A stretch of 50,941 nt of DNA from contig CAZHOS010000003.1 in the NCBI GenBank assembly GCA_964534605.1, positions 1 through 50,941 on the forward strand, in the 5' to 3' direction. This DNA is from an uncultured Candidatus Saccharibacteria bacterium (GTDB lineage Bacteria; Patescibacteriota; Saccharimonadia; Saccharimonadales; VXPC01). Below, one piece after another: positions 23,715-37,867 of the stretch; the first letter of the stretch is position 1; the number at the start of each line of letters is the position of its first letter. A program made the translations under genes and the position numbers. The notes beneath the pieces are model-generated. The model saw nothing but the letters and a program-made list of their open reading frames with translations, ran no database searches and was not told the DNA's origin.

Positions 23715-24644
23715 ATGCTAATACTCGCTCCAATGTATGATGTGACCGACACTGTCTTTCGGCAGATGGTGGCTTCTTGCGCCCCTCCGGACATGTTTAT
23801 GACCGAGTTTGTGAATGTTGATGGCCTGCAGAGCCCTGGGCGCCAACGCCTGCTGCACTTCTTAAAGCTTGAGGATACACACGATGTACCGGTTATTGCC
23901 CAGATATGGGGCAAAACACCCGAGAATTATTACAAAGTAGCCCAAGAGGTTGCCGACATGGGCTTCGACGGTATAGATATCAATACCGGCTGCCCCGACA
24001 AGACTATTACCAAAAACGGCTGCTGCTCGGCCTTTATACAGCCAGAAAACCGGCCGCTCTTCAAAGAGATATTGCAGGCTACTAAAGACGGCTCAAAGGG
24101 CTTGCCAGTAAGCGTAAAAACGCGCCTGGGCTGGGGCGAGACAGACTTTAGTTGGCATCAGATGGTGCTAGAGCAGGGCGTCAGCATGTTTAGCATCCAT
24201 GGCCGTACCAAGCGCGAGATGAGCAAGGTCCCAGTGCGCTGGGACGAAATAGTGCATATCCGTAAGCTACGTGATGATATTGCCCCAAACACCAAGATTA
24301 TTGGTAACGGTGACGTCCTGACCCGTCAACAGGCAGAAGAGTTACAGGCCAAGCATGGACTAGACGGTATTATGATTGGCCGCGGGGTCTTCCAGGATCC
24401 GTTTGTCTTTGCCAAGTCCAGCCCTTGGGCTGATTATCCTCGGTCCGAGAAGATAAAGCTGTTTATCAAGCATCTCGAGCTTTACCGCGACACCTACAGC
24501 AGCGGCGAGAGGCGCTTTGATCCCACTAAGAAGTTTATGAAGGTTTATATCAATGGTTTCGAGGGGGCTAGTGATATACGGGCTAAGGTTGCGGTTACTA
24601 AATCTGCTGATGAGGCTATCAATATCTTAAGACAGAGTCTCTAG
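23715..24644 (+). CDS. dus: tRNA-dihydrouridine synthase
   Basis: 309 aa. LAPMYDVTDTVFRQM, DINTGCP and a TIM-barrel length/pattern are typical of the Dus family. Confidence 0.9.
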   Translation: MLILAPMYDVTDTVFRQMVASCAPPDMFMTEFVNVDGLQSPGRQRLLHFLKLEDTHDVPVIAQIWGKTPENYYKVAQEVADMGFDGIDINTGCPDKTITKNGCCSAFIQPENRPLFKEILQATKDGSKGLPVSVKTRLGWGETDFSWHQMVLEQGVSMFSIHGRTKREMSKVPVRWDEIVHIRKLRDDIAPNTKIIGNGDVLTRQQAEELQAKHGLDGIMIGRGVFQDPFVFAKSSPWADYPRSEKIKLFIKHLELYRDTYSSGERRFDPTKKFMKVYINGFEGASDIRAKVAVTKSADEAINILRQSL

Positions 24645-24651
24645 AGGCTTA

Positions 24652-24773
24652 CGGGGAGGGACTCGCCCACGTTCCGCGGGCCCGAAACTTCGTTCATGGC
24701 AACAAGTTGTCAGAAGAAGGTTTCCTTGCAACATGCCACAGGCATGTTTCACCCCCGACCTCTAGTGTCAGAG
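24652..24773 (-). pseudogene. ghost copy of the 3' half of tRNA-fMet, split in the T-loop by an 85-nt insert
   Basis: On the minus strand:
- CTCtgACaCtaGAGGTCGGGGGT (24773-24751) matches the anticodon loop through T54, 17/23.
- An 85-nt insert follows.
- CGAGTCCCTCCCCG (24665-24652) matches C56 onward. Confidence 0.6.
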
Positions 24774-24793
24774 AACCAGAATCCTTGCCAAGA

Positions 24794-24835
24794 AACCAAG
24801 TAAAATACCCACATCTGTGGGTATTTTACTTGGTT
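24794..24835 (-). terminator. hairpin terminator that incorporates the tRNA ACCA end
   Basis: 18-bp perfect stem AACCAAGTAAAATACCCA / 6-nt loop / TGGGTATTTTACTTGGTT, followed by TTTCTT on the minus strand. Confidence 0.7.
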
Positions 24836-24905
24836 GCGGGGGAGGGACTCGAACCCCCGACCTCGTGGTTATGAGCCACGCGAGCTGCCGCTGCTCCACC
24901 CCGCG
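24831..24905 (-). tRNA. initiator tRNA-fMet (anticodon CAU)
   Basis: The 75-nt sequence CGCGGGGTGGAGCAGCGGCAGCTCGCGTGGCTCATAACCACGAGGTCGGGGGTTCGAGTCCCTCCCCCGCAACCA forms a cloverleaf. It has the C1xA72 mismatch and A11:U24 typical of bacterial initiators, and the CCA end is encoded. Confidence 0.9.
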
Positions 24906-25484: not shown

Positions 25485-25521
25485 CTACCTCTGTAGCAGA
25501 CAGCAATAGAGTTTTTTTGAT

Positions 25522-25597
25522 GGGGGTGTAGCTCAGGGGTTAGAGCAGTCGACTCATAATCGATTGGTCGCTGGTTCAATTCCAGCCACCCCCACCA
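25522..25597 (+). tRNA. elongator-type tRNA(CAU), probably tRNA-Ile2 (lysidine)
   Basis: The 76-nt sequence GGGGGTGTAGCTCAGGGGTTAGAGCAGTCGACTCATAATCGATTGGTCGCTGGTTCAATTCCAGCCACCCCCACCA forms a cloverleaf. Its D-arm, anticodon arm and variable/T-arm closely resemble E. coli ileX as I remember it. The Met versus Ile2 call needs a classifier. Confidence 0.9.
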
Positions 25598-25612
25598 AGA
25601 AAATTTTATCCA

Positions 25613-25715
25613 ATAAATCGATGGCTAATGACGCGGAACAAGCATGGGAGCTGCTGTCTCGCTACTGCGTCGTTCACTAAAGTTAACTCCTTACAATTCC
25701 AGCCACCCCCACCAA
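25613..25715 (+). pseudogene. ghost copy of the 3' half of the preceding tRNA(CAU), split in the T-loop by a 64-nt insert
   Basis: - ATAAaTCGATGGCTAAT (25613-25629) is a degenerate anticodon-loop to T-stem segment.
- The insert is 25630-25693.
- CAATTCCAGCCACCCCCACCAA (25694-25715) is 22/22 identical to 25577-25598. Confidence 0.6.
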
Positions 25716-25733
25716 AAGAACCTTAAACATTTT

Positions 25734-25748: not shown

Positions 25749-26615
25749 ATGGATTGGTTGGTCGTAACTGTAATTGCTATTTTCTCAAGAGCTTTTTATT
25801 CAGTTTCTGTGAAGAGTATGAGCAGTAATGTAAAAGTTTCGGCCTCAATGCAGGCTGTATTATTAACACTATTAGCTGCACTTCTGACCCTACTGTTAGT
25901 CCCATTTCTGGGCTTCAGTACAGAAGGCATCTCTCAGAACTGGAAAATAATACTCGTGCTAGCGGTATCCCAGGGTGTTGGTAATGTGATCTATTTTAGG
26001 GGTCAAGAGCATCTTGATGCGGGCACCACTCAGGTTGCACTTTCTAGTATGCTTATATGGACAGCATTACTGTCTGCACTGTTTCTTGGATCTAGCTATA
26101 GTGTTCGGCAATATTTAGGGATGGTGTTACTTGGTATCTGCATACTTTTTGCAAACAGTCGAACCAAGGGCGCGGCAATCGCTGCCAAGGGGATTGCATA
26201 TATATTGGTGTCGGCAGTCGTGTTCTCTGTATTTGTGGTAGCTGGTGCAGATTTATCTAGTAAGATTAATATTGTTACGTATCTCCTTGCGACCTATTTA
26301 GGGGCTAGTATCTTTTCTATATTGGGTCTGCATAAAACCTTTAGAAGGGATGTAGGTTACCTCAAGGCCAATTTAACCCATTCAATTAAGAGCACATCTC
26401 TCGCCAGCATTACTTCTTTGCTCTATTTTATGCTTATATTTTACGCCTTCAGATTATCGCCTGATCCAGGCGTGGTCGCGGTTCTAGCTAATGCTCAAGT
26501 AGTCACAACGGTATTCGTAGCAGCTATATTGCTACAAGAAAGAGAACGGATTTTCAGAAAGTCCATATCTGCCTTAATTGTGCTTTTAGCCGCATATCTT
26601 ATATCAGGGGTTTAA
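25749..26615 (+). CDS. EamA/DMT-family transporter
   Basis: 288 aa with about 10 TM segments in two similar halves, the typical drug/metabolite transporter architecture. Confidence 0.8.
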   Translation: MDWLVVTVIAIFSRAFYSVSVKSMSSNVKVSASMQAVLLTLLAALLTLLLVPFLGFSTEGISQNWKIILVLAVSQGVGNVIYFRGQEHLDAGTTQVALSSMLIWTALLSALFLGSSYSVRQYLGMVLLGICILFANSRTKGAAIAAKGIAYILVSAVVFSVFVVAGADLSSKINIVTYLLATYLGASIFSILGLHKTFRRDVGYLKANLTHSIKSTSLASITSLLYFMLIFYAFRLSPDPGVVAVLANAQVVTTVFVAAILLQERERIFRKSISALIVLLAAYLISGV

Positions 26616-35902: not shown

Positions 35903-35932
35903 TTGGCAGGGTTTTAATCTTTAATATTTTTC

Positions 35933-35941
35933 TGCTATAAT
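35933..35941 (+). promoter_or_regulatory. extended -10 (TGcTATAAT) for the tRNA leader transcript
   Basis: Same 9-mer as upstream of the other plus-strand tRNA; lies about 210 nt upstream of the tRNA. Confidence 0.45.
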
Positions 35942-35965
35942 CCACCCCTGTTGAAAAGAGACCAT

Positions 35966-36143
35966 CACACATTTGGCGGTCGTCATCGACTAGCAAAAGA
36001 AAACCGTGGTTTTCTTCCCTCGGCATCAAACCAAGAATCTCTGATTCTGTTTGAGGATGAGAGAGGAGTAGCGATGATCTGCCAAGATGTGTTGTTCTGC
36101 TACTTGTTTGCAGGACCACACATTTGGTGGTCGTCATCGACTA
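35966..36143 (+). promoter_or_regulatory. structured leader with two direct copies and one inverted copy of a 27-nt repeat
   Basis: R1 is CACACATTTGGCGGTCGTCATCGACTA (35966-35992). R2 is the same with one change (36117-36143). An inverted, degenerate copy GAGTAGCGATGATCTGCCAAGATGTG lies at about 36066-36091. Confidence 0.4.
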
Positions 36144-36149
36144 CGACGA

Positions 36150-36226
36150 GGCGGTATAGCTCAGCTGGTTAGAGCGCAGGACTCATAAGCCTGAGGTCAG
36201 TGGTTCAAGTCCACTTACCGCTACCA
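36150..36226 (+). tRNA. elongator-type tRNA(CAU), probably tRNA-Met
   Basis: The 77-nt sequence GGCGGTATAGCTCAGCTGGTTAGAGCGCAGGACTCATAAGCCTGAGGTCAGTGGTTCAAGTCCACTTACCGCTACCA forms a cloverleaf. It has G1-U72 and an A31-G39 mismatch. Met versus Ile2 is not resolvable by eye. Confidence 0.9.
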
Positions 36227-36227
36227 G

Positions 36228-36260
36228 AAAAAGTTCATCTAAAAGGTGAGCTTTTTTGTT
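36228..36260 (+). terminator. rho-independent terminator of the tRNA
   Basis: AAAAAGTTCATC / TAAAA / GGTGAGCTTTTT (with G-U pairs), followed by TTGTTTG. Confidence 0.75.
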
Positions 36261-36262
36261 TG

Positions 36263-36368
36263 ATAAGCCTGAGTTTAGTGGTGACGGCGACCAAACAGGG
36301 GGCTGCTGTCGCCTATTCTGCCGTTCTTGAAAGCAAGAGCTCTTTACAAGTCCACTTACCTCTACCAA
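36263..36368 (+). pseudogene. ghost copy of the 3' half of the preceding tRNA(CAU), split in the T-loop by a 64-nt insert
   Basis: - ATAAGCCTGAGtttAGTGGT (36263-36282) matches tRNA positions 35-54 at 17 of 20.
- The insert is 36283-36346.
- CAAGTCCACTTACCtCTACCA (36347-36367) is 20/21 identical to 36206-36226. Confidence 0.65.
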
Positions 36369-36431
36369 TAAAATAAATCTAAGAAGGTGAATTTTTTTAA
36401 TCGGGGTGATAGCGATGCTAGACTTAAGGCG

Positions 36432-37319
36432 ATGAGTATTAATATTGCACCGGGTAAGTATGTAGTGGCGGTTTCTGGCGGGGTTGACTCGATGGTTTTG
36501 CTGGATGTGTTAAGCGAGACCAATGATCTGGATCTTATCGTAGCGCACTTTGACCACGGAATACGCAATGATTCGCATGTAGATGCAGAATTTGCTGCAG
36601 CTGCTGCAGGCCGCTATGGTATGGCGGTCGAGACTGAGCGCGTAGAGCTAGGAGCCGATGCAAGTGAAGAGGCTGCTCGCATCGCTCGTTATAACTTTTT
36701 GCACGATATCAGGTCCAAATACCAGGCCCAGGCAATTATTACAGCCCATCATCAAGACGATCTACTAGAGACCGTGGTTATTAATATTTCTAGAGGCACT
36801 GGCCGGCATGGCCTCAGCAGCTTACGCAGTCAGGGTAGCTTGCAGCGCCCACTGCTGGGTTGGTCTAAGCAAGATATTATGGATTATGCTGACTCCCATG
36901 ACATCGAGTGGCGCGAGGATCCTACTAACAAAGACACAACACTGCTGCGCAACCATATTAGGCACGAGATTTTGCCGAAATTATCCCAAGCTCAAAAGCA
37001 GACGCTTATTAATACTTCGATACGAACTGCCGAGCTGAACGATCAGATAGACGAAGGTCTGGCCACACTCCTCAAGTACAAAAGCTATCGGCACGAGGGC
37101 AAGGTTTACCCCAGGTCTTGGTTTAATTCATTGCCGCATAGTCTGTGCATGGATATCGTCCACCATTGGATGCGCCAGCTAAAAGTGCACGACTATAGCC
37201 GTCCAAAGATCGATAGGATTGTCCTGCAGCTCAAGACACTTCGTCCGGGTAAGCAGGTGCAGCTTGGTAGTGACAAAACAATAGCTATTACCAAAAGATC
37301 CTTGCGTCTGCAGGTTTAG
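36432..37319 (+). CDS. tilS: tRNA(Ile)-lysidine synthase
   Basis: PP-loop VAVSGGVDSMVLLDVL, HFDHGIR and ITAHHQDDLLET. The ORF opens at GTG 36387; ATG 36432 is the more likely start. Short form (about 295 aa). Confidence 0.85.
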   Translation: MSINIAPGKYVVAVSGGVDSMVLLDVLSETNDLDLIVAHFDHGIRNDSHVDAEFAAAAAGRYGMAVETERVELGADASEEAARIARYNFLHDIRSKYQAQAIITAHHQDDLLETVVINISRGTGRHGLSSLRSQGSLQRPLLGWSKQDIMDYADSHDIEWREDPTNKDTTLLRNHIRHEILPKLSQAQKQTLINTSIRTAELNDQIDEGLATLLKYKSYRHEGKVYPRSWFNSLPHSLCMDIVHHWMRQLKVHDYSRPKIDRIVLQLKTLRPGKQVQLGSDKTIAITKRSLRLQV

Positions 37320-37774
37320 AGCCCGACTTTAATACCGAATTCTTCCCGCAAGTCTTTTAGTGGGCGGCCCAAGTACTGCTCGTAGTCAAAGTGTGGCCAC
37401 TTTTTCTTCATGCGCACAGCTCGGTACGCGGCTCTAATAACTCTAGGCAGAGTGGTGAGCAAGCGTTTTGTTAACCGCCATATACCAAAATGGCCGACAA
37501 CCTTCCCAATAAACCCCTTTTTTACGATGTTGGTCATCTTTTTGGGAGGTAGCTTGCAGCCGAGCACAGTCATGACCTCTACCAGTAACTCTTCTGCGGA
37601 TGTTGGTCCAAGCCCAAAGAATACATGGGCCGCGTCGTGGGCTTTAACTACAGATGCTTCTTGGCCTAAAAAGCCGTCGCTATCTACAAAGTCAGGGTGG
37701 TTTTTGTAGTATTCATCTAGTCCCATTTGCAGCGTCTGATTGGTGTCTGGCGACTGATAAGCGTATTTACTCAT
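37316..37774 (-). CDS. Coq4-family-like protein
   Basis: HDAAHVFFGLGPTSAEE fits the Coq4 HDxxH-x11-E metal-ligand motif. The ORF extends to 37864, but Met 37774 (MSKYAYQSPD) is the likely start. Confidence 0.6.
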   Translation of the reverse strand: MSKYAYQSPDTNQTLQMGLDEYYKNHPDFVDSDGFLGQEASVVKAHDAAHVFFGLGPTSAEELLVEVMTVLGCKLPPKKMTNIVKKGFIGKVVGHFGIWRLTKRLLTTLPRVIRAAYRAVRMKKKWPHFDYEQYLGRPLKDLREEFGIKVGL

Positions 37775-37867
37775 GGTCAAAATCTTACCACTTGGGTCAT
37801 AATAACAACGTAATTTAAGTAGAATTATATGCTGATAATACGTCTTATCCTGTAGAATAGGCAAGAT

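What the first reader, a model, noticed from the sequence alone, without database searches (positions are those of the whole stretch)
25630..25693. The T-loop inserts of two different ghost tRNA halves are homologous 64-nt elements
The 25630-25693 insert is GACGCGGAACAAGCATGGGAGCTGCTGTCTCGCTACTGCGTCGTTCACTAAAGTTAACTCCTTA. The 36283-36346 insert is GACGGCGACCAAACAGGGGGCTGCTGTCGCCTATTCTGCCGTTCTTGAAAGCAAGAGCTCTTTA.

Both are exactly 64 nt. Both start GACG directly after tRNA position 54 and end (C/T)TTA directly before C56. They share the blocks GGG-GCTGCTGTC, TGC-GTTC and AAAG. By eye roughly two thirds of positions match, with 1-2 gaps.

The flanking tRNA-derived parts differ because each matches its own tRNA. 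The insert is therefore a discrete element family placed at the same T-loop position in two different tRNA backgrounds.

No conserved reading frame exists; an indel shifts the frame, and the 19-codon ATG ORF in copy 1 is not preserved in copy 2. This points to a DNA or RNA element. The 85-nt fMet insert shares only CGCGGAAC and may be unrelated.
Basis: seen in the sequence. Interest (0 to 1): 0.7.

Follow-up and report, generated by a model that had tools for sequence, protein, structure and literature searches.

The report
Foreign inserts in leftover tRNA halves
Next to each of three methionine-type tRNA genes of an uncultured Saccharibacteria bacterium lies a leftover copy of the gene's back half, broken at one fixed loop position by foreign DNA; two of these 64-base inserts are related, and the whole most likely records past DNA recombination at tRNA genes rather than a working gene.

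Summary
The inserts at 25630-25693 and 36283-36346 are both 64 nt. Each replaces one T of the T54/T55 pair in a partial tRNA copy. They are about 65% identical, far above shuffled controls (0 of 5000).

A third partial copy (fMet, minus strand) carries an unrelated 85-nt insert (24666-24750) at the same position.

Each partial copy ("ghost") lies just downstream of an intact CAU-anticodon tRNA gene and its terminator. It starts in the anticodon loop.

About ten related Saccharibacteria loci with the same gene order have the tRNAs but no ghosts. One relative (L037) has a different tRNA-fragment scar. In a syntenic relative the fMet tRNA abuts the Dus stop codon; in the window the ghost holds that place, so it is the displaced original 3' end.

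I found no further copy of the 64-nt sequence in the window, in IMG/VR, in GTDB representative genomes or in phage records. I found no Rfam match, no conserved ORF, no convincing shared fold, no terminal inverted repeats and no recombinase gene nearby.

Best reading (confidence about 0.4): these are scars of tRNA-targeted recombination. Dispensable displaced 3' halves later took up foreign non-coding DNA at the T-loop crossover point.

The family has only two members so far.

The parts
24831..24905 (-). Intact initiator-type tRNA (CAU)
   Evidence: ARAGORN; Rfam tRNA 59.9 bits
24779..24850 (.). Palindrome with 35-nt arms. Its core is the terminator hairpin after tRNA-fMet. The outer arms are the tRNA 3' end and a degenerate inverted copy of it.
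   Evidence: the repeat finder I1, 83% complementary. The hairpin interior differs, with compensating changes, in sister strain L123.
24751..24775 (-). fMet ghost, 5' part (anticodon loop to T54). The 12 nt next to the insert are identical to the tRNA; the rest is decayed.
24666..24750 (-). 85-nt insert in the T-loop of the fMet ghost. It is unrelated to the 64-nt inserts and rich in hairpins.
   Evidence: With its flanks it folds at z = -3.3.
24645..24665 (-). fMet ghost, 3' part (C56 onward). It directly abuts the Dus stop codon (24642-24644), the place the real tRNA occupies in relative L036.
25522..25597 (+). Intact tRNA (CAU). It looks like tRNA-Ile2 by resemblance only; ARAGORN calls it Met.
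25613..25629 (+). Ile2-like ghost, 5' part. It is strongly decayed, including two changes in the T-stem strand.
   Evidence: direct reading
25630..25693 (+). 64-nt insert, copy 1 (the finding)
25694..25725 (+). Ile2-like ghost, 3' part plus trailer. It is a 32-nt direct repeat of 25577-25608 (88%); the first 23 nt are identical.
36150..36226 (+). Intact tRNA (CAU), elongator-Met-like, upstream of tilS. It is 100% identical to the tRNA of relative L003, where it lies on the other strand.
36227..36262 (+). Terminator hairpin and T-run after tRNA-Met; the end of tandem unit 1
   Evidence: fold; repeat D3
36263..36282 (+). Met ghost, 5' part (A35 to T54, 18/20). It begins tandem unit 2, 78 nt after the start of unit 1.
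36283..36346 (+). 64-nt insert, copy 2
36347..36398 (+). Met ghost, 3' part (20/21) plus a degenerate copy of the terminator, ending at the tilS start

Best explanation
The three loci are fossils of recombination aimed at tRNA genes.

Step 1 is shown for fMet and inferred for the other two. A short piece of DNA entered each CAU tRNA gene. It supplied a new 3' part and a terminator, so the gene stayed intact. The original 3' half, from the anticodon loop onward, was pushed downstream as a dispensable 'ghost'. This is the classical outcome of site-specific integration into a tRNA gene. Almost nothing of an element body is left here.

Step 2 is inferred. The ghost still offered a T-arm, a favoured crossover site of tRNA-targeting recombinases. 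Because the ghost is dispensable, it could survive an insertion there; the same event in the real gene would be lethal. Foreign non-coding DNA was joined in exactly between T54 and C56. What remains is 64 nt at the Ile2-like and Met ghosts and 85 nt at the fMet ghost. The two 64-nt pieces are homologous and so come from related donors. The 85-nt piece comes from an unrelated donor.

On this reading the 64-nt sequence is element-derived DNA next to a crossover point. It may once have been a protein-binding arm: both copies keep the direct motif CTGCTGTC ... CTGC(C)GT(T)C. It is not a gene, and no evidence was found that it is a structured RNA.
For: - Architecture: the same layout occurs three times. 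An intact tRNA and terminator are followed by a partial 3' copy that starts in the anticodon loop and is interrupted at T54/C56.
- Ancestral state: loci L003, L007/L036, L038, L044 and L121, several sharing the window's gene order (L036 the full order MurC..Dus-tRNAfMet-DivIC-tRNAIle2-Pyr_redox..tRNAMet-TilS-FtsH), have the tRNAs and no ghost.
- Rarity: a z-score scan finds downstream direct ghosts only in the window (z = 6.9, 12.4, 11.0) and in L037 (z = 7.7).
- Displacement: in L036 the fMet tRNA 3' end directly abuts the Dus stop codon. In the window the ghost 3' part holds that position, and the working gene lies 186 nt further on behind a new terminator.
- Uneven decay in the Ile2-like ghost: the part 5' of the insert has about 6 changes plus indels in 20 positions, while the part 3' of it is 23/23 identical. 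The two sides therefore have different histories or constraints, as expected around a recombination junction.
- Same junction, different inserts: two unrelated insert sequences use the identical junction. This points to a target-determined crossover.
- Independent precedent: relative L037 carries another kind of scar at the same tRNA-Met locus. It has an inverted 3' half after a palindromic terminator and a 14-nt T-loop/T-stem repeat 158 nt downstream.
- Not another kind of feature: the inserts show no significant fold, no covariation, no Rfam hit, no conserved ORF and no similarity to tRNA.
- Published parallels: T-loop attB sites are documented for mycobacteriophage Ms6 (PMC1762012). In an archaeon, integration of a mobile element was proposed to add an intervening sequence to a tRNA gene and leave a tRNA fragment (PMC3293823).
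Against: - No integrase, transposase or other element gene lies between or near the repeats. Only 16-57 nt separate each tRNA from its ghost.
- Three near-complete losses of an element body, all leaving the ghost start in the anticodon loop, are not expected from random deletion.
- Classical integration does not put anything inside the T-loop of the distal repeat. A second event is needed at each of the three loci.
- One T is lost at every junction. Conservative site-specific recombination does not predict that.
- At the Met locus the two units are a head-to-tail tandem repeat including the terminator (74-column alignment). That looks more like a local duplication than an integration.
- No donor element, attP or further copy was found in any collection.
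Confidence: 0.4

Rival explanations
1. One-step mini-insertion. A single small DNA module of about 120-190 bp was inserted into the T-loop of each tRNA gene. Its order is: new T-loop-to-CCA segment, terminator, a tRNA-like stretch (A35-T54), then the 64/85-nt sequence. In circular form, the ghost with its insert would be the module's attachment site. It would be a non-autonomous, tRNA-restoring integrative mini-element moved by a recombinase encoded elsewhere.
For: - It needs only one event per locus and explains the missing element body.
- It explains why the part 5' of the insert in the Ile2-like ghost is much more diverged than the 3' part: element-borne versus host DNA.
- It fits the ghost 3' part of fMet lying in the ancestral position.
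- The trailers after the Ile2-like and Met tRNAs look weakly alike (about 13 of 20 positions, by eye; AT-rich, not tested).
Against: - The end of the insert next to the junction does not resemble a core site paired with the T-stem 3' arm (by eye).
- No integrative element this small is known.
- No recombinase gene lies in the 51-kb window.
- No other copy was found anywhere.
- The ghost's T-stem carries the lineage-specific derived sequence of the host tRNA-fMet (GGGGG/CCCTC, against GCAGG/CCTGC in L036 and L038). The module would therefore have to be native to this lineage.
Confidence: 0.2
2. Replication or repair accident. Local tandem and inverted duplication of the tRNA 3' half plus terminator arose by slippage or template switching at strong hairpins. 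The 64/85-nt pieces would be filler copied from elsewhere in the genome. No mobile element is involved.
For: - The Met locus is an exact head-to-tail duplication of a 78-nt unit, terminator included.
- The fMet locus and L037 contain palindromes whose arms include the tRNA 3' end, typical of fold-back events.
- The region between tRNA-fMet and its ghost differs by indels and a replaced hairpin in a sister strain that is 94% identical.
Against: - Accidents would not place unrelated fillers at exactly the same nucleotide of the T-loop three times.
- Accidents would not give two homologous fillers identical ends at two loci.
- No source of the filler exists in the window.
- About ten related loci show no such duplication.
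Confidence: 0.15
3. Functional RNA or regulatory module. Ghost plus insert would be transcribed and act as a tRNA mimic or tRNA-directed RNA. For example, the antisense strand could pair with both sides of position 55. Alternatively it could act as a leader for the downstream genes (EamA, TilS).
For: - The 13-23 nt just 3' of each insert are almost perfectly kept (55 of 56 positions over the three ghosts), while other ghost parts decayed.
- The Ile2-like ghost 3' part plus its trailer stays complementary to the tRNA leader and acceptor strand (18 nt, 89%).
- Both 64-nt copies lie upstream of, and in the same orientation as, the next gene.
Against: - There is no significant folding (z = -0.2 and -1.0) and no consistent covariation.
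- There is no Rfam match even at E = 10.
- No promoter-like site lies in or before the ghosts, and a terminator separates them from the tRNA.
- The T-stem of the Ile2-like ghost is broken.
- The feature is absent from all relatives, so it is not a conserved function.
- The fMet ghost faces the end of a convergent gene.
Confidence: 0.07
4. Assembly artefact: strain variants of the tRNA 3' half joined in series by the assembler.
For: Two other assemblies break at 24765 and at 24829, on either side of the fMet terminator.
Against: - The Met locus, including the unit1/unit2 junction and the insert, is identical in two independent assemblies (MEGAHIT and Logan contigs).
- The Ile2-like locus is 99.95% identical in the ENA contig.
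- The fMet ghost with its insert is present in two further contigs.
- A bubble between variants cannot create the junction k-mers seen.
Confidence: 0.02

Closest known systems
Partial tRNA direct repeats (attL/attR) left by integrases that target tRNA genes, with crossover in the anticodon loop or T-loop. T-loop example: mycobacteriophage Ms6 attB in tRNA-Ala (PMC1762012). The sublocation classes are recalled from Williams 2002, which was not read here.
   Same: - An intact tRNA gene is followed by a direct repeat of its 3' part.
- The repeat starts in the anticodon loop.
- The second breakpoint lies in the T-loop.
- The displaced copy holds the ancestral flank (fMet).
   Different: - No integrase and no element body lie between the repeats (16-57 nt only).
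- The distal repeat is itself interrupted inside the T-loop.
- One T is missing at each junction.
Archaeal tRNA gene disruption by integrating elements: intron gain plus a scattered tRNA fragment in Caldiarchaeum subterraneum (Sugahara et al. 2012, PMC3293823). Also transposition of homologous tRNA introns between tRNA genes in Thermoproteales (recalled from memory, not read here).
   Same: - Homologous intervening sequences sit at a fixed non-canonical position in different tRNA backgrounds.
- A tRNA fragment lies beside a reconstituted gene.
- A mobile-element origin is proposed.
   Different: - There the interrupted gene is functional because archaea splice such introns.
- Here the interrupted copies lack a 5' half and cannot be tRNAs.
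- The organism is a bacterium, and no splicing motif was tested.
Miniature non-autonomous elements: MITEs, and cis-mobilizable elements (CIMEs) derived from integrative elements by deletion (from general knowledge).
   Same: - The sequence is short, non-coding, has defined ends and occurs in more than one copy.
- No enzyme of its own is encoded.
   Different: - There are no terminal inverted repeats, no target-site duplication and no flanking att duplication.
- Only two copies are known, and they are 35% diverged.
tRNA gene fragments mis-annotated in prokaryotic genomes (bioRxiv 10.1101/2022.07.05.498093; title and abstract only)
   Same: These are partial, non-functional tRNA-derived sequences next to real genes.
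   Different: From the title and abstract alone, that work concerns annotation errors; whether it covers fragments carrying a recurrent T-loop insert was not checked.

Membership tests
tRNA-gene integration scar (attL/attR direct repeats) | Intact tRNA gene plus a direct repeat of its 3' portion downstream | tested here: met
   (z = 6.9-12.4 at all three loci)
tRNA-gene integration scar (attL/attR direct repeats) | The distal repeat carries the ancestral 3' flank of the gene | tested here: met
   Met for fMet: the ghost abuts the Dus stop codon, as the real tRNA does in L036. Flank comparisons for the Ile2-like and Met loci were uninformative.
tRNA-gene integration scar (attL/attR direct repeats) | An element with a recombinase gene, or its remains, lies between the repeats | tested here: not met
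   Only 16-57 nt lie between tRNA and ghost. No integrase or transposase domain occurs in any window ORF.
tRNA-gene integration scar (attL/attR direct repeats) | The repeat is continuous across the crossover region | tested here: not met
   The repeat is interrupted by 64/64/85 nt, with one T lost.
MITE / IS-derived miniature element | Terminal inverted repeats | tested here: not met
   No inverted repeat joins the insert ends (direct reading).
MITE / IS-derived miniature element | Target-site duplication | tested here: not met
   The flanks are T54 and C56. Nothing is duplicated and one T is missing.
MITE / IS-derived miniature element | Multiple dispersed copies | tested here: inconclusive
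   Two copies lie in 51 kb and none elsewhere in the window. The rest of the genome could not be reached. No copy was found in IMG/VR or in GTDB representatives with a block pattern.
IS200/IS605-type single-strand elements (PATE) | Subterminal hairpins at both ends and insertion 3' of a fixed tetra- or pentanucleotide without loss of bases | tested here: not met
   The 64-nt copies have no significant hairpins, and one base is lost at the junction.
tRNA intron (archaeal BHB type or bacterial group I) | The interrupted gene encodes a complete tRNA | tested here: not met
   The ghosts lack everything 5' of the anticodon loop. ARAGORN and Rfam find only the three intact genes.
tRNA intron (archaeal BHB type or bacterial group I) | A splicing motif (bulge-helix-bulge or group I core) | not tested
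   No intron family matched in Rfam at E <= 10. The BHB geometry was not examined.
Structured non-coding RNA | Stability above shuffled controls and compensatory base changes | tested here: not met
   Single-sequence z = -0.22 and -1.02. The consensus fold is -3.7 kcal/mol with 0 compensatory pairs, or -7.35 kcal/mol with 2 when flanks are included. With only two sequences the power is low.
Integron attC site | RYYYAAC ... GTTRRRY core sites in an imperfect palindrome | tested here: not met
   By eye. AAC and GTT are present, but the core sites do not fit and the arms are not nested.

The most novel reading that the evidence does not exclude
The 64-nt sequence (and, separately, the 85-nt one) could be a new kind of very small mobile or recombinase-delivered insertion that is specific for the T54/C56 position of tRNA T-loops. 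It would have no inverted repeats and no target duplication. It would be visible only where a dispensable tRNA half lets it survive. Alternatively, the whole tRNA-restoring module of about 140 bp could be a miniature integrative element circulating in Saccharibacteria.
Probability: 0.12. Interest if true: 0.75.

Novelty: new variant of a known kind. Interest (0 to 1): 0.4.

Why it matters
Candidate Phyla Radiation bacteria such as Saccharibacteria have tiny genomes, and few mobile elements have been described in them. Here all three tRNA genes of the window, the CAU set, carry a layered recombination scar that related genomes lack. That suggests tRNA-targeted DNA traffic has acted in this lineage.

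The loci also show how an essential single-copy tRNA gene can be hit repeatedly and survive: the gene is restored and the displaced half absorbs later insertions.

The pattern is a bacterial counterpart of the insertions into tRNA genes that in archaea become introns or split genes.

If the insert proved to be an active T-loop-specific element, it would be a new type of site-specific mobile DNA. As it stands, the finding is a well-documented oddity in one lineage.

Tried and rejected
**Further copies of the insert**
- A two-copy nhmmer model found none in the window or in any fetched locus.
- The pattern GCTGCTGTC..CGTTC..AAAG in IMG/VR gave 7 hits, none with the other conserved blocks of the insert (GGG upstream, GACG start), so taken as chance.
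- A 20-base block pattern in GTDB representatives gave 21 hits in unrelated phyla, consistent with chance (my estimate: on the order of 10), and none in Saccharibacteria.

**A phage or element attP**
- The two tRNA 3' ends gave 0 hits in IMG/VR.
- Two patterns from the 85-nt insert gave 0 hits in IMG/VR.
- blastn against INPHARED phage records found nothing.

**Known RNA families**
- Rfam found only the three tRNAs, at the gathering threshold and at E <= 10.

**Origin of the inserts**
- Insert derived from tRNA sequence: rejected; all 18 comparisons fall within the shuffle range.
- The 85-nt insert as a diverged or inverted relative of the 64-nt ones: rejected.
- Coding remnant: the frames disagree across the best-conserved block, so no conserved ORF.
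- Promoter inside the insert: the scan found none.

**Mobile genes nearby**
- No integrase lies between tRNA-CAU and tilS in metagenome relatives with long gaps.

**Closer relatives**
- The DivIC-like search gave only a sister strain on 0.6-0.75 kb contigs. Its sequence ends 14 nt past the ghost T-stem and cannot show whether the 85-nt insert is present.
- Cluster look-ups gave no strain variants.

**Flank comparison**
- Flank similarity did not show which copy is ancestral at the Ile2-like and Met loci.

Full report
**What is there**

The window is a chromosomal stretch of a Saccharibacteria (TM7) bacterium. The TilS homologues are so named by their sources, and the nearest is only 55% identical. 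The window holds three tRNA genes, all with a CAU anticodon:
- an initiator-type gene at 24831-24905 (minus strand);
- an Ile2-like gene at 25522-25597;
- an elongator-Met-like gene at 36150-36226, upstream of tilS and ftsH.

The Ile2 and Met labels rest on resemblance only.

Each gene is followed on its own strand by a terminator-like spacer and then by a partial copy of its own 3' half. That copy begins in the anticodon loop and runs to the CCA end. In all three copies the T-loop is interrupted at the same nucleotide: the T-stem 5' strand and one T are followed by foreign sequence and then by C56. The foreign piece is 64 nt at 25630-25693, 64 nt at 36283-36346, and 85 nt at 24666-24750.

**Check of the observation**

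- Their global alignment scores 46, against -4.6 +/- 7.3 for dinucleotide shuffles (0 of 5000).
- Their local alignment scores 30, against 12.9 +/- 2.0 (0 of 2000).
- MAFFT gives 42 identical columns of 66.
- The 85-nt insert is unrelated to them in either orientation.
- None of the inserts resembles any part of the three tRNAs.

The Met locus is base-for-base identical in a MEGAHIT contig and a Logan contig from other data sets. The Ile2-like locus and the fMet ghost recur in further contigs. The structure is therefore real.

**What the inserts are not**

- Not a known RNA. Rfam finds nothing beyond the tRNAs, even at E = 10.
- Not a convincingly structured RNA. The 64-nt copies fold no better than shuffles (z = -0.22 and -1.02). 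RNAalifold finds a consensus of only -3.7 kcal/mol with no compensatory pair, or -7.35 kcal/mol with two when flanks are included. By eye each copy can form two hairpins at roughly corresponding places, but the pairs fall in different alignment columns. With two sequences this stays unproven.
- Not coding. The best-conserved block, GCTGCTGTC, is read in different frames in the two copies.
- Not a standard transposable mini-element. The insert ends share no inverted repeat, nothing is duplicated, and one T is lost.
- Not a promoter. The scan found no promoter-like site in or before the ghosts.

The only internal feature shared by both copies is a direct motif pair, CTGCTGTC and CTGC(C)GT(T)C, about 15 nt apart (by eye).

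**Distribution**

- A two-copy nhmmer model finds no other copy in the window or in the 120 loci fetched.
- Block patterns found only chance matches in IMG/VR and in one genome per GTDB species (21 hits in unrelated phyla).
- tRNA 3'-end patterns, patterns from the 85-nt insert and blastn against phage records found nothing.

The rest of this genome could not be reached with the tools. It is therefore unknown whether other tRNAs carry ghosts.

**Comparison with relatives**

I fetched orthologous loci through TilS homologues and a metagenome scan.
- L036 has the same gene order as the window: MurC, Dus, tRNA-fMet, DivIC-like, tRNA-Ile2, Pyr_redox, ATPase, tRNA-Met, TilS, FtsH. It has all three tRNAs and no ghost.
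- L003, L038, L044 and L121 also lack ghosts.
- A k-mer scan and a z-score scan of every tRNA in all loci found downstream direct ghosts only in the window (z = 6.9, 12.4, 11.0) and in L037 (z = 7.7). All other signals were neighbouring tRNA genes.

The ghosts are therefore a derived feature of this lineage.

In L036 the 3' end of tRNA-fMet directly abuts the stop codon of the convergent Dus gene. In the window it is the ghost that abuts the Dus stop, and the working gene lies 186 nt away behind a long palindromic terminator. So, at least at this locus, the ghost 3' part is the original end of the gene. The present 3' end plus terminator is the newer DNA.

L037 (GCA_020631905.1) shows that the tRNA-Met/tilS locus is recombination-prone in this group. 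It has an inverted 3' half just after a palindromic terminator that resembles the window's fMet terminator. It also has a 14-nt T-loop/T-stem repeat 158 nt downstream.

The orientation of tRNA-Met relative to a conserved left flank also flips among relatives. It is plus in the window, L037 and L121, and minus in L003, L036, L038 and L044.

**Decay pattern**

- In the Ile2-like ghost the 23 nt after the insert are identical to the gene. The 20 nt before it carry about six changes and several indels, including two in the T-stem strand.
- In the fMet ghost the 12 nt before and the 13 nt after the insert are identical, and the more distal parts have decayed.
- In the Met ghost the two tRNA-like parts are 18/20 and 20/21. 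The duplicated terminator is about 75% identical.

The sequences bordering the insert, above all on its 3' side, are thus better kept than the rest. Three explanations fit:
- the two sides of the junction have different origins;
- the events are recent and the two 64-nt sequences had already diverged in their donors;
- short-tract gene conversion, or selection, has kept the borders.

These cannot be separated with one genome.

**Sister strain**

A DivIC-like homologue led to 0.6-0.75 kb contigs that are 94-96.6% identical to the window. L123 runs 105 nt past tRNA-fMet.
- The terminator hairpin has a different interior with fully matching arms.
- The spacer has several substitutions and indels.
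- The ghost 5' part is present (CTAGAGCAAGTCGGGGAT).
- The contig ends 14 nt later.

Those last bases fit a continuous T-loop (15 of 17 to the tRNA) about as well as the start of the 85-nt insert (7 of 10). The order of events is therefore not settled. Two other assemblies end at 24765 and 24829, on either side of this variable stretch. That fits co-occurring strain variants or a coverage gap.

**Interpretation**

The best-supported account has two layers.
1. A tRNA-restoring insertion displaced the original 3' half, as site-specific integration into tRNA genes does.
2. The displaced half, which is dispensable but still carries a T-arm, received foreign DNA at the T-loop crossover point.

An unrelated 85-nt sequence occupies the identical junction. 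This argues that the target fixes the position. It also explains why such inserts are seen only in ghosts: in these genomes each CAU tRNA appears to be single-copy, so the same event in the real gene would be lethal.

This account has weaknesses:
- no recombinase gene and no element body;
- the need for a second event at all three loci;
- the lost T;
- the head-to-tail tandem form of the Met locus.

I therefore give it about 0.4. The rivals are:
- a one-step tRNA-restoring mini-module (0.2);
- replication-based rearrangement with templated filler (0.15);
- a functional RNA (0.07);
- an assembly artefact (0.02).

**Relation to known systems**

The loci meet two defining features of tRNA integration scars: the direct 3' repeat and the ancestral flank at the distal copy. 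They fail two others: an element between the repeats and a continuous repeat. They fail the defining features tested for MITEs, IS200/IS605-type elements, attC sites, tRNA introns and structured RNAs; copy number for MITEs was inconclusive and the intron splicing motif was not examined.

The nearest published parallel is archaeal. There, integration of a mobile element was proposed to add an intervening sequence to a tRNA gene and leave a tRNA fragment (PMC3293823). T-loop attachment sites are documented for phage Ms6 (PMC1762012).

I file the finding as a new variant of a known kind. It is of moderate interest and is limited by resting on a single lineage.

Noticed in passing
window 36090-36226, compared with L003 1790-1903, L037 9600-9713 and L121 9872-9948: The tRNA-Met gene upstream of tilS is flipped among Saccharibacteria relatives. 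It is plus in the window, L037 and L121, and minus in L003, L036, L038 and L044. The left flank (...ACGACG) stays collinear right up to the tRNA edge. The gene therefore seems to invert precisely at its own ends.
   Followed up: partly
L037 9714-9884 (GCA_020631905.1): After tRNA-Met lies a palindromic terminator whose right arm continues into an inverted tRNA 3' half with an abnormal 6-nt 'T-loop'. A 14-nt direct repeat of the T-loop/T-stem lies 158 nt downstream. The terminator (ACCAAAGTAAAGCCACCC...) resembles the one after the window's tRNA-fMet.
   Followed up: partly
window 24766-24828: Two other assemblies of the same strain end at 24765 (an ENA MEGAHIT contig and a Logan contig, at the same base), and a third contig ends at 24829. 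The 63 nt between them hold the terminator hairpin, which differs in sister strain L123. The cause may be strain polymorphism or a coverage gap.
   Followed up: partly
window 25506-25528 with 25587-25609, and with 25704-25721: The leader of the Ile2-like tRNA is complementary to its own trailer. This would extend the acceptor stem by about 14 bp (23-nt arms, 83%). The leader is also complementary to the ghost 3' end plus its trailer (18 nt, 89%).
   Followed up: no
window 25749-26615 and 37316-37864: Two genes have no counterpart at the same place in the syntenic relative L036. One is an EamA-family transporter right after the Ile2-like ghost. The other is a small Coq4-like gene on the opposite strand between tilS and ftsH.
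   Followed up: no
window 35930-36149, compared with L003 1710-1826: The roughly 220-nt spacer between the FecR-domain gene and tRNA-Met has blocks conserved with a distant relative, for example AGGAG.AGCGATGAT. A promoter-like site lies at 35903-35930. This may be an unannotated small RNA or a long tRNA leader.
   Followed up: no
window 24636-24649 and 24759-24765: The hexamer CTAGAG occurs at the Dus stop codon, within a short palindrome, and again in the fMet ghost 5' part. The two copies bracket the 121-nt segment of T-stem, insert and ghost 3' part.
   Followed up: no
The closest relatives (Dus 78% identical) therefore stayed out of reach.
   Followed up: yes
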